Shown here piece by piece: positions 62,518 to 63,228 of a stretch of 64,000 bases of DNA. Location: NCBI GenBank assembly GCA_002897675.1, contig BDSU01000040.1, positions 5,201 to 69,200 of the forward strand, written 5' to 3'. Source of the DNA: a bacterium BMS3Abin02 (GTDB lineage Bacteria > Actinomycetota > Acidimicrobiia > Spongiisociales > UBA4744). Each line of letters starts with the position of its first letter. The first letter of the stretch is position 1. The translations under genes were made by a program, and so were the position numbers. The notes under the pieces were generated by a model, which was not told the origin of the DNA, did no database searches, and saw nothing but the letters and a program-made list of their open reading frames with translations.

Positions 62518-63033
62518 CGAACACCCTCGATCCACACGCCGTCCTCACCGTCGATCTCGCTCAATCGCACCGTGACGCGCTCATCCTCCTCCGAGGTCGG
62601 CACGTTCTTGCCCACGTAGTCTGCTCGTATGGGGATCTGGCGGTGACCCCGGTCGATCAGCACCGCGAGTTGTACTGCGGCGGGGCGGCCCAGGTCTGTC
62701 AAGGCGTCGAGCGCGGCCCTGATCGTACGACCCGTATACAGCACGTCATCGACGAGCACGACCGTTCGTCCACTGATGTCGAGCGGCATCGCGGTGCGGA
62801 ACAGGGACGCCCTCGGGCGAGCGGCGAGATCGTCACGGTACAGACCGATTCCAAGTGTGCCCACGGGAACCGCAACGCCCTCGATCCCCTCGATGATCGA
62901 TGCCAACCGAGTGGCGAGTGGGACTCCCCGGGTGTGAATTCCGACCAGTACCAGCGAGTCCGCCCCCTTGTTCCGTTCGAGGATCTCGTGCGCAATCCGC
63001 TGCACGACACGGGCGACGTCGGCGCCGTCCATT
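62514..63033 (-). CDS. pyrR: Bifunctional pyrimidine operon regulator / uracil phosphoribosyltransferase PyrR. The start is proposed at the ATG of a TAATG overlap; an alternative in-frame ATG lies at 63045.
   Basis: [23 protein letters not shown] ... PRTase motif [18 protein letters not shown]. The N-terminus aligns with the Bacillus PyrR start when translated from the ATG at 63033. Confidence 0.85.
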
Positions 63034-63104
63034 ACCAGGGGCATCGTCTGCCACTCCACATGAAAAATGCCGCCTCTCGGGCGGCCCTCATAGGTGTGTT
63101 CATG
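63033..63104 (-). CDS. Putative 23-codon leader ORF ([23 protein letters not shown]) in the pyrR leader, coupled to pyrR by a TAATG overlap
   Basis: GGAAGGAG RBS 5 nt upstream of the AUG at 63104. The stop TAA shares its last A with the pyrR ATG. The RBS sits in the 3' flank of the PyrR-binding hairpin. Confidence 0.35.
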
Positions 63105-63107
63105 CTG

Positions 63108-63140
63108 TCTCCTTCCCGGCCTCACAGGACCGGCGTTAAA
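63108..63140 (-). promoter_or_regulatory. PyrR-binding RNA hairpin (CCGGUCCUGUGAGGCCGG) overlapping a GGAAGGAG RBS
   Basis: Minus-strand RNA ...CGCCGGUCCUGUGAGGCCGGGAAGGAG... contains the UCC-N-GAGAGG-like PyrR binding-loop signature (UCCUGUGAGG) closed by a CCGG/CCGG stem, immediately 5' of the Shine-Dalgarno sequence. Confidence 0.5.
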
Positions 63141-63228
63141 GGACTGTCCATGCAATGTAGCAGTATCCGGTGGGCAGTTGCCAGTACCCGAAGACCGGCG
63201 CCGACCGGCATGCCGCGTGGCCGCCGAC

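What the first reader, a model, noticed from the sequence alone, without database searches (positions are those of the whole stretch)
63033..63228. pyrR leader: PyrR-binding hairpin fused to a strong RBS, with a 23-codon uORF coupled to pyrR via TAATG
- The leader RNA on the minus strand contains CGCCGGUCCUGUGAGGCCGG, which is the UCC…GAGG PyrR binding-loop signature.
- This is immediately followed by GGAAGGAG and an AUG at 5-nt spacing.
- That AUG opens a 23-codon frame ([23 protein letters not shown]). Its stop TAA overlaps the ATG that yields a canonical PyrR N-terminus ([23 protein letters not shown]).
- The in-frame alternative start (MPLVMDG) has only a weak RBS.
- Together this suggests PyrR occludes the leader-peptide RBS and pyrR/pyr operon translation is controlled by coupling. 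Such a uORF-coupling mechanism is not, to my knowledge, the textbook description of PyrR-mediated regulation, which covers the Bacillus antitermination and the mycobacterial translational-repression models.
Basis: partly seen in the sequence, partly recalled or inferred. Interest (0 to 1): 0.6.

Follow-up and report, generated by a model that had tools for sequence, protein, structure and literature searches.

The report
PyrR leader ORF spanning a terminator
In front of the pyrimidine-synthesis genes, the RNA hairpin bound by the regulator PyrR covers the ribosome-binding site of a 23-codon leader reading frame that runs across a transcription terminator and ends on the pyrR start; Thermus has the same layout, so this is a known kind of switch found in a new lineage.

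Summary
The sequence facts are correct. On the minus strand there is a PyrR binding hairpin at 63143-63110. Its 3' strand is the Shine-Dalgarno GGAAGGAG, and an AUG follows 5 nt later. A 23-codon ORF (63103-63032) ends in TAATG.

Rfam's PyrR model aligns full length over hairpin plus terminator, at 37.8 bits, below the curated cut-off of 54.

The leader ORF is conserved. I chose 32 pyrR loci by PyrR N-terminus and hairpin distance only. Of these, 31 have such an ORF, against 3.6 expected from shuffles. All six distinct closest relatives have it too. The peptide sequence is not conserved.

pyrR starts at the upstream ATG (63044, MPLV…), not at the TAATG ATG. One relative has Ala at that position, and two end the leader ORF on the upstream ATG.

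Thermus and Meiothermus loci fetched here show the same architecture. From memory, a ribosome-instead-of-antiterminator attenuation model was proposed for Thermus in 1997.

Most likely, PyrR blocks leader translation, the terminator then forms, and pyrR translation is coupled to the leader ORF. Verdict: real, but a new member of a known kind.

The parts
63154..63162 (-). Putative extended -10 promoter element TGcTACATT of the pyrR operon. It sits 8-10 nt upstream of the binding hairpin.
   Evidence: The block TGCTACATTGC is invariant in the window and in L161, L163 and L164, while the flanks diverge (alignment A1). The promoter reading is inference. The strict sigma-70 scan found nothing here.
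63110..63143 (-). PyrR binding hairpin. Lower stem UCCUUU/GAAGGA, upper stem CCGGUC/GGCCGG, loop CUGUGA. It carries the UCC...GAGG signature.
   Evidence: Rfam RF00515 alignment. MFE and RNAalifold structures. Only hit of the binding-loop HMM in the window, E=3e-8.
63109..63116 (-). Shine-Dalgarno GGAAGGAG of the leader ORF. It forms the 3' strand of the hairpin's lower stem.
   Evidence: Sequence. Anti-SD duplex -11.0 kcal/mol. Invariant in the five closest relatives.
63032..63103 (-). Leader ORF of 23 codons plus TAA ([23 protein letters not shown]). It overlaps the pyrR start by 13 nt.
   Evidence: Start position and frame are conserved in L161-L167, in 23 more distant loci, and in Thermus/Meiothermus. 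The peptide sequence is not conserved.
63060..63085 (-). Intrinsic terminator inside the leader ORF: stem GCCGCC/GGCGGC (63085-63069), loop CGAGA, then AUUUUUCAU (63068-63060). The stem starts 18 nt after the leader AUG.
   Evidence: Terminator scan. Aligned as the terminator of RF00515. The stem is invariant in five relatives while the loop and flanks vary. Pairing probability is 0.96-0.99 in the full leader. Function as a terminator is not tested.
63054..63057 (-). Moderate SD (GGAG) for pyrR, 9 nt before the ATG at 63044.
   Evidence: Duplex -6.0 kcal/mol. The equivalent SD is present in some relatives and absent in 10 of 30.
62514..63044 (-). pyrR (176 aa, [10 protein letters not shown]...). 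Its stop overlaps the pyrB ATG as ATGA.
   Evidence: 100% identical to 'bifunctional protein PyrR [bacterium BMS3Abin02]', 176 aa. Pfam PF00156/PF14681. PDB PyrR structures match at E 1e-49 to 1e-62.
61600..62517 (-). pyrB (aspartate carbamoyltransferase), the first biosynthetic gene under the leader. pyrC and pyrD follow.
   Evidence: Pfam OTCace_N/OTCace, then DHOase and DHO_dh in the next ORFs.
63229..63585 (-). nusB, the upstream neighbour (context: efp-nusB-leader-pyrR-pyrB).
   Evidence: Pfam NusB. The same synteny appears in relatives.

Best explanation
This is a PyrR-gated leader-ORF attenuator of the Thermus type.

1. The pyr transcript begins just upstream of the PyrR binding hairpin.
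2. When pyrimidine nucleotides are high, PyrR binds and stabilises the hairpin. The 3' strand of the hairpin is the SD of a 23-codon leader ORF, and the AUG lies 5 nt beyond it. No ribosome loads, the GC hairpin 18 nt downstream of that AUG forms behind RNA polymerase, and transcription stops in the U run (63067-63060) before pyrR-pyrB-pyrC-pyrD.
3. When pyrimidines are low, the hairpin is free. A ribosome starts on the leader ORF, follows the polymerase, covers or unwinds the 5' arm of the terminator, and transcription reads through.
4. That ribosome terminates at UAA 63034-63032, 10 nt inside pyrR. This delivers ribosomes to, or opens, the pyrR start at 63044 (translational coupling), a second layer of the same control.

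Shown here: the anatomy, its conservation, and its identity with the Thermus layout. Inferred: PyrR binding, terminator function, the ribosome acting as antiterminator, and the coupling.
For: Anatomy:
- Hairpin, SD, AUG, ORF, terminator and overlap with pyrR are all present.
- RF00515 aligns full length over hairpin plus terminator.
- A bona fide PyrR is encoded next door.

Conservation of the leader ORF:
- 31 of 32 loci have it, against 3.6 expected from dinucleotide shuffles. These loci were chosen only by PyrR N-terminus type and a hairpin at least 40 nt from pyrR.
- ORF lengths range from 15 to 47 codons with unrelated peptides. The frame is kept, not the sequence.
- All six distinct closest relatives (71-83% PyrR identity, same efp-nusB-pyrR-pyrB synteny) keep the ATG and the frame. 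The stop moves between two positions, both within the pyrR initiation region.

Terminator:
- The stem is invariant in the five closest relatives and always lies 18 nt from the leader AUG. The codons between vary.
- Unrelated hairpin-plus-U-run sequences occupy the same place in L001, L018 and L081.

Link to Thermus:
- Thermus (L168, L169) and Meiothermus (L170) have the hairpin, SD, ATG, a 28- or 34-codon ORF containing a terminator, and a stop overlapping the pyrR start.
- They score 33-40 bits on RF00515, like the window.

Coupling:
- The leader-ORF SD is always present. The pyrR SD is absent in 10 of 30 loci.

Mechanistic precedents:
- CsrA represses iraD only through a coupled upstream ORF (PMC5574718).
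Against: - There is no experimental or expression data for this organism (a metagenome-assembled genome).
- The window's ORF alone is not beyond chance (p=0.14).
- RF00515 stays below its gathering score (37.8 against 54).
- An RNA antiterminator cannot be excluded in this window. CGCCGGUCCUG (63135-63125) can pair with GAGGGCCGCC (63089-63080) over 8 bp at -12.4 kcal/mol. A fold that enforces this pairing is within 1.4 kcal/mol of the MFE of the partial transcript.
- My energy metrics did not separate leader-ORF loci from classical loci (Mann-Whitney p=0.25).
- The time window for a ribosome to load is short. The U run ends 43 nt after the AUG.
- The U tracts of some relatives are weak (GUUCUUGUU, GUUUUCCGU).
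- Many relatives have the leader ORF without any terminator, so the terminator is not essential to the class.
- The 32 loci are not phylogenetically independent.
Confidence: 0.55

Rival explanations
1. Purely translational relay. PyrR blocks the leader ORF, and pyrR (with the operon, through coupling or polarity) is translated only when the leader ORF is. The GC hairpin with the U run does not act as a transcription terminator.
For: - 27 related loci have a leader ORF running to the pyrR start with no terminator at all, so the ORF alone seems sufficient for regulation.
- 10 of 30 loci lack a pyrR SD.
- U tracts in some close relatives are poor.
- Experimental precedents for relays through a leader ORF exist.
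Against: - The hairpin stem is invariant and followed by a U-rich run in the five closest relatives, while the surrounding codons vary.
- Non-homologous hairpin-plus-U-run elements sit at the same place in L001, L018, L081, Thermus and Meiothermus.
- Rfam's model aligns it as the PyrR attenuator terminator.
- The specific claim that pyrR starts at the TAATG ATG is contradicted.
Confidence: 0.2
2. Classical Bacillus-type RNA-only attenuation. The binding hairpin acts as anti-antiterminator, an RNA antiterminator competes with the terminator, and the reading frame is incidental.
For: - RF00515 matches full length.
- There is an 8-bp potential antiterminator, 63135-63125 with 63089-63080, at -12.4 kcal/mol. 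The alternative fold is nearly isoenergetic.
- Energy metrics do not distinguish this locus from classical ones.
- Dehalococcoidia relatives clearly have an RNA antiterminator as well as an ORF.
Against: - The pairing partner (AGGG before the stem) is not conserved in L161, L163, L164 or L165, whose best duplexes are only -7 to -10.6 kcal/mol.
- RNAalifold finds only the binding hairpin and the terminator.
- Only 20 nt separate the hairpin from the terminator.
- This model leaves the conservation of the start codon, frame and end point of the ORF unexplained (31 of 32 against 3.6 expected).
Confidence: 0.15
3. The short ORF encodes a functional small peptide, or the ATG after the hairpin is an unused relic of an ancestral pyrR start.
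For: - Direct-type sister loci use the hairpin's SD for pyrR itself.
- Many acidobacterial leader ORFs begin MP..., like PyrR.
Against: - The peptides are unrelated in sequence and length, which argues against a functional peptide.
- A relic would accumulate stops and frame shifts, yet the frame is open to the pyrR start in 31 of 32 loci.
Confidence: 0.05

Closest known systems
Thermus pyrR leader (Thermus strain ZO5; Van de Casteele et al. 1997, J Bacteriol 179:3470 - recalled from memory, paper not retrievable here).
   Same: The PyrR binding hairpin's 3' strand is the SD of a leader ORF. The AUG follows 4-5 nt later. The ORF contains a GC hairpin plus U run, and its stop overlaps the pyrR start (L168, L169, L170). 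RF00515 scores are similar and below threshold. As I recall it, the published model uses a translating ribosome instead of an RNA antiterminator.
   Different: - A different lineage (bacterium BMS3Abin02, unclassified; efp-nusB-pyrR synteny), with only about 60% PyrR identity.
- The ORF is shorter (23 against 28-34 codons).
- The terminator sits much closer to the AUG (18 nt against about 30-35 nt).
- The hairpin and peptide sequences are unrelated.
Bacillus subtilis pyr attenuators (Rfam RF00515; Lu & Switzer 1996, as cited in PMC6524683 and PMC4347634)
   Same: The PyrR protein, the binding-loop motif and a downstream intrinsic terminator. PyrR binding favours termination (for the textbook description).
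   Different: - In Bacillus a long RNA antiterminator competes with the terminator and no translation is involved.
- Here only 20 nt lie between hairpin and terminator, there is no conserved antiterminator, and a conserved ORF starts at the hairpin.
- The score is below the Rfam gathering threshold.
Mycobacterium smegmatis PyrR translational repression (Fields & Switzer 2007, J Bacteriol 189:6236; title and reference seen, content from memory)
   Same: The binding hairpin overlaps a ribosome-binding site, so PyrR acts by blocking initiation. Twelve related loci here have exactly this direct layout.
   Different: In the window the occluded RBS belongs to a leader ORF, not to pyrR. The pyrR start lies 59 nt further downstream, behind a terminator.
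E. coli pyrBI leader-peptide attenuation (established knowledge, from memory)
   Same: A ribosome translating a leader peptide across an intrinsic terminator decides between termination and readthrough of pyrimidine genes.
   Different: The E. coli sensor is UTP-dependent polymerase pausing, not an RNA-binding protein. There is no PyrR and no binding hairpin.
Relays through a leader ORF: CsrA-iraD (PMC5574718) and the M. tuberculosis ppe2 B12 riboswitch (PMC11260477)
   Same: In CsrA-iraD, a regulator blocks the start of a short upstream ORF whose stop overlaps the main start, and the main gene is controlled only through coupling. In ppe2, a riboswitch-controlled leader is translated and PPE2 expression depends on that translation.
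   Different: The regulators and genes are different. No embedded intrinsic terminator is reported in those abstracts.

Membership tests
PyrR binding site RNA (Rfam RF00515) | Hairpin with the conserved UCC...GAGG binding motif and the lower stem CCUUU/AAGG | tested here: met
   Full-length alignment to the model with high posterior probability over the hairpin. Only hit of a binding-loop HMM in 64 kb, E=3e-8.
PyrR binding site RNA (Rfam RF00515) | Score at or above the curated gathering threshold (54 bits) | tested here: not met
   37.8 bits. Thermus, Meiothermus and all terminator-bearing relatives also fall at 33-42 bits, so the model under-scores this whole class.
PyrR binding site RNA (Rfam RF00515) | Intrinsic terminator downstream of the binding hairpin | tested here: met
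   Stem 63085-63069 plus AUUUUUCAU. Function is not tested.
PyrR binding site RNA (Rfam RF00515) | Located upstream of pyrimidine genes in a genome that encodes PyrR | tested here: met
   pyrR-pyrB-pyrC-pyrD lie directly downstream.
Bacillus-type PyrR attenuator (anti-antiterminator / antiterminator / terminator) | A conserved RNA antiterminator that competes with both the binding hairpin and the terminator | tested here: inconclusive
   An 8-bp candidate exists in the window (-12.4 kcal/mol, nearly isoenergetic fold). It is not conserved in the four closest relatives, and RNAalifold finds none. Energy metrics did not discriminate the classes.
Thermus-type PyrR leader-ORF attenuator | The SD of a leader ORF lies in the 3' strand of the binding hairpin, with a start codon within 10 nt | tested here: met
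   GGAAGGAG, then 5 nt, then AUG. Thermus has GGAAAGGGGG, then 4 nt, then ATG.
Thermus-type PyrR leader-ORF attenuator | The leader ORF reads through the whole terminator | tested here: met
   ORF 63103-63032 encloses 63085-63060. The same holds in L168-L170.
Thermus-type PyrR leader-ORF attenuator | The leader ORF stop overlaps the pyrR initiation region | tested here: met
   The stop lies 10 nt after the pyrR ATG at 63044. In Thermus it lies 8 nt after the GTG, and in Meiothermus the overlap is ATGA.
Thermus-type PyrR leader-ORF attenuator | Pyrimidine-dependent repression that requires leader translation and PyrR | not testable with these tools
   Needs in vitro transcription-translation or genetics.
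Mycobacterium-type direct translational repression by PyrR | The binding hairpin overlaps the ribosome-binding site of pyrR itself | tested here: not met
   The pyrR ATG (63044) lies 66 nt from the hairpin's 3' end and has its own GGAG. Direct-type loci exist among relatives.
PyrR protein (bifunctional regulator / uracil phosphoribosyltransferase) | Sequence membership of the PyrR family | tested here: met
   E 1e-49 to 1e-62 against solved PyrR structures, including T. thermophilus 1UFR. PF00156 and PF14681. Named PyrR by NCBI. RNA binding itself is not tested.

The most novel reading that the evidence does not exclude
The window is one form of a broad and, as far as I could find, undescribed class. 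In this class PyrR controls pyr operons through a gated leader ORF that relays the signal to pyrR. The relay would work in one of three ways:
- an embedded intrinsic terminator (this window, its relatives, Thermus);
- pure termination-reinitiation coupling (Acidimicrobiia-like loci with 15-25-codon ORFs);
- exposure of a C-rich, G-poor stretch to Rho (Acidobacteria; C-G skew up to +0.67).

The class would have arisen repeatedly from the direct Mycobacterium-type layout, by insertion between the old start codon and pyrR.
Probability: 0.35. Interest if true: 0.55.

Novelty: new member of a known kind. Interest (0 to 1): 0.35.

Why it matters
- The finding corrects the reading of this leader. It is a transcription attenuator with an embedded leader ORF, not just a hairpin on an RBS, and pyrR starts at MPLV.
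- The Thermus-style solution, with a ribosome in place of an RNA antiterminator, is not a curiosity of one genus. It recurs in this lineage. Its core, a PyrR-gated leader ORF ending on the pyrR start, is found in dozens of loci from MAGs labelled Actinomycetota, Acidimicrobiia and Acidobacteria, and in unlabelled metagenome contigs.
- Rfam's PyrR model misses or under-scores all of these, so automated annotation will overlook them.
- The series direct RBS occlusion, then leader-ORF relay, then leader ORF with terminator is a compact natural example of how one RNA-binding regulator is rewired between translational and transcriptional control. It is testable in Thermus, which is genetically tractable.

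Tried and rejected
- **Literature.** I could not retrieve Van de Casteele 1997, Turnbough & Switzer 2008, Fields & Switzer 2007 or Bonner 2001. Full-text searches for PyrR with Thermus, leader peptide or uORF found no paper describing the leader-ORF mechanism. The Thermus precedent therefore rests on my memory plus the direct sequence test.
- **Close relatives.** The genome and metagenome scans gave at most 69% PyrR identity. Closer relatives (71-83%) came only from the protein search plus contig look-ups.
- **Frame openness.** As a test this is weak in GC-rich DNA. The other two frames are also open back to the hairpin in about 70% of loci. I replaced it with a shuffle test on an independently defined set.
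- **Thermodynamic tests for an RNA antiterminator.** The energy gain in partial transcripts, duplexes of the hairpin's 3' strand or of the whole leader with the terminator 5' arm, did not separate leader-ORF loci from classical loci. I therefore do not claim that an antiterminator is absent, only that none is conserved.
- **First terminator script.** It had a de-duplication bug and missed the window's terminator. It was fixed.
- **Rejected: pyrR starts at the TAATG ATG**.
- **Rejected: a functional leader peptide.** There is no sequence conservation.
- **Rejected: additional PyrR sites in the window.** None were found.
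Full report
**What is in the sequence**

The minus strand reads efp, nusB (63585-63229), a 185-nt intergenic leader, pyrR, pyrB, pyrC, pyrD.
- The hairpin sequence CGCCGGUCCUGUGAGGCCGG lies at 63135-63116.
- GGAAGGAG lies at 63116-63109, followed by a 5-nt spacer and AUG at 63103.
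- A 23-codon ORF ([23 protein letters not shown]) has its TAA at 63034-63032, overlapping an ATG at 63032.
- An in-frame ATG lies 12 nt upstream, at 63044.

The predicted fold has a lower stem UCCUUU/GAAGGA and an upper stem CCGGUC/GGCCGG with loop CUGUGA. The Shine-Dalgarno sequence is therefore the 3' strand of the hairpin. A profile built from 109 binding loops finds this site, and no other, in the 64-kb window (E=3e-8).

The ORF contains an intrinsic-terminator-like element. Its stem is GCCGCC (63085-63080) and GGCGGC (63074-69), with loop CGAGA, followed by AUUUUUCAU (63068-63060).

Rfam's PyrR model RF00515 describes binding loop plus terminator. It aligns over its full length (positions 1-115) to 63146-63060 at 37.8 bits, E=0.0064, below the gathering score of 54. 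In the full leader the stem pairs with probability 0.96-0.99. The element is thus built like a transcription attenuator.

**Whose genome this is**

PyrR from the upstream ATG is 100% identical over 176 of 176 residues to 'bifunctional protein PyrR [bacterium BMS3Abin02]', an unclassified metagenome-assembled bacterium. It matches solved PyrR structures at E 1e-49 to 1e-62, including Thermus thermophilus 1UFR.

**Is the leader ORF real?**

In the window alone it is not beyond chance. 14% of dinucleotide shuffles of the spacer give an ORF that starts next to the hairpin and ends on the pyrR start. Conservation decides the question.
- I collected 160 pyrR loci from species genomes and metagenomes. 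I located the binding loop by HMM in 137 of 161 leaders, window included.
- I then defined a test set without reference to any ORF. The criteria were a PyrR N-terminus of the M-x-x-V type and a hairpin at least 40 nt from pyrR. I added the contigs of the closest homologues.
- 31 of 32 loci have a start codon -3 to +8 nt from the hairpin's 3' end whose frame stays open until a stop inside the pyrR initiation region. Shuffles predict 3.6.
- ORF lengths run from 15 to 47 codons and the peptides are unrelated. The frame and end points are maintained, not a peptide. The loci are not phylogenetically independent, but the many length changes that preserve the frame argue for selection.

**The closest relatives**

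L161/L162, L163, L164, L165, L166 and L167 have 71-83% PyrR identity and keep the gene order pyrR-pyrB. Five of the six distinct contigs also show nusB upstream; L167 does not. All keep GGAAGGAG plus ATG and an open frame. They also settle which ATG starts pyrR.
- In L161 and L163 the leader ORF (19 codons) ends as TGATG on the upstream ATG (MAQVMDG), and Val-Met is GTCATG.
- L164 encodes MSLVADGA, so it has no second ATG. Its leader stop (TAG) lies 10 nt after the pyrR ATG, as in the window.
- Twelve 'direct' loci place the hairpin's SD in front of the pyrR start itself. In the ones read here (L011, L045, L061) the product begins MPVVMD at the upstream ATG.
- Residues L3-V4 align with conserved residues of solved PyrRs.

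pyrR therefore most probably starts at 63044 (MPLV), as NCBI annotates it. The leader ORF overlaps it by 13 nt. The elegant TAATG overlap is not the conserved feature.

**The terminator in relatives**

The GCCGCC/GGCGGC stem is invariant in the window, L161, L163, L164 and L165. It always begins 18 nt after the leader AUG. The loop, the five codons before it and the tail vary. The U tracts range from good (GUUUUUGUU) to poor (GUUCUUGUU).

L001, L018 and L081 carry unrelated hairpin-plus-U-run sequences in the same position inside their leader ORFs. L166, L167 and 25 more distant loci have a leader ORF but no terminator.

**Comparison with Thermus**

I recalled that a leader-peptide model had been proposed for the Thermus ZO5 pyr cluster (Van de Casteele et al. 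1997): no RNA antiterminator, a translating ribosome prevents terminator formation. I could not retrieve the paper, so I tested the architecture directly.
- I rebuilt the T. thermophilus PyrR sequence from the PDB alignment, found Thermus and Meiothermus proteins, and fetched their contigs.
- Both Thermus loci read: hairpin, GGAAAGGGGG, 4 nt, ATG, then a 28-codon ORF containing GGCGCGGGGGG...CCCCCGC-UUUUUU, with a stop 8 nt after the pyrR GTG.
- Meiothermus has a 34-codon ORF with a terminator and an ATGA overlap.
- These loci score 33-40 bits on RF00515, full length, like the window and its relatives at 34-42 bits.

The window is therefore built like Thermus in every feature I could test.

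**Ribosome or RNA antiterminator?**

This is the weakest point.
- Classical and Dehalococcoidia loci show a contiguous 9-10-bp helix between the hairpin's 3' strand (GGCAAGRGG) and the terminator's 5' arm (CCYCUUGCC).
- The window's clade and Thermus lack this helix, and RNAalifold finds only the hairpin and the terminator.
- However, the window has an 8-bp alternative, CGCCGGUCCUG with GAGGGCCGCC, at -12.4 kcal/mol. The fold containing it is within 1.4 kcal/mol of the MFE of the partial transcript.
- None of my energy measures separated leader-ORF loci from classical ones (p=0.25).
- The alternative pairing is not conserved in the four closest relatives, whereas the ORF is. I therefore favour the ribosome but keep the RNA-only model as a rival.

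**Coupling**

The leader-ORF SD is always present (median -7.1 kcal/mol, and -11.0 in the window). The pyrR SD is moderate in the window (-6.0) and unrecognisable in 10 of 30 loci. The leader stop always falls within -14 to +1 nt of the Val-Met codon pair. This fits termination-reinitiation coupling. Experimental precedents exist for CsrA-iraD and, with uORF-dependent expression, for the M. tuberculosis ppe2 riboswitch.

**Mechanism proposed**

When pyrimidines are high, PyrR clamps the hairpin. The leader ORF is not translated, the terminator forms, and transcription stops before pyrR. Any transcript that escapes has poor pyrR initiation.

When pyrimidines are low, a ribosome initiates 5 nt past the hairpin, reaches the terminator's 5' arm within a few codons, and prevents termination. 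It then hands over to pyrR at the overlap. The anatomy, conservation and Thermus identity are shown. All binding and kinetic steps are inferred.

**Novelty**

This is a new member of a known kind. But the start codon assignment is wrong, the terminator was missed, and the concept is not new.

The broader pattern may be new: a PyrR-gated leader ORF across several phyla, with terminator-containing, terminator-less and possibly Rho-dependent forms. I give that reading a probability of 0.35.

Noticed in passing
window 63152-63162 (minus strand): TGCTACATTGC is invariant in the window and three relatives, while the rest of the nusB-pyrR spacer diverges. It reads as an extended -10 (TGn-TACATT) placed so that transcription would begin at the first bases of the PyrR hairpin. 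This implies that pyrR has its own promoter.
   Followed up: partly
L015, L060, L113, L114, L119, L151, L158, L159, L070, L030 (leader ORFs between binding hairpin and pyrR): Terminator-less acidobacterial leader ORFs are C-rich and G-poor, with a C-G skew of +0.25 to +0.67 against about 0 in pyrR itself. L015 contains CTCACTTTCTCAC repeats. This looks like a Rho utilisation site that would be exposed when PyrR blocks leader translation. [quoted passage not shown]
   Followed up: partly
L015, L060, L113, L114, L119, L151, L158, L159 compared with L011, L045, L061, L101, L117, L131: Many leader ORFs begin MP... (ATGCC...), like the PyrR N-terminus MPxVMD. Sister loci use the hairpin's SD directly for pyrR. 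The leader start codon may be the ancestral pyrR start, separated from the gene by an insertion.
   Followed up: no
L007, L084, L085, L086, L090, L093, L094 (L007 is a Dehalococcoidia MAG; the others are unlabelled metagenome contigs with the same leader): These loci have two features together. One is a clear 9-10-bp RNA antiterminator (GGCAAGGGG:CCYCUUGCC). The other is a 25-26-codon ORF that starts 2-3 nt after the hairpin, crosses the terminator and stops 5 nt after the pyrR ATG. RNA and ribosome may act together here.
   Followed up: partly
Rfam RF00515 against L003, L015, L166, L167 and all leader-ORF loci: The curated PyrR model includes the terminator. It scores every leader-ORF-type site below its gathering threshold (33-42 bits) and finds nothing at E<=1 in the terminator-less loci. 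These sites are invisible to standard annotation.
   Followed up: yes
window 62514-62517 and 63581-63585 (minus strand): The genes are tightly coupled. The pyrR stop and pyrB start overlap as ATGA. The nusB GTG start overlaps the end of efp (GTGTGA).
   Followed up: no
L098 (metagenome contig Ga0307409_100001795): This is the single exception in the 32-locus test. Its ORF from the hairpin stops 23 nt before the Val-Met position, and a GTG in the pyrR frame lies 14 nt after the hairpin. pyrR may simply start further upstream there.
   Followed up: no
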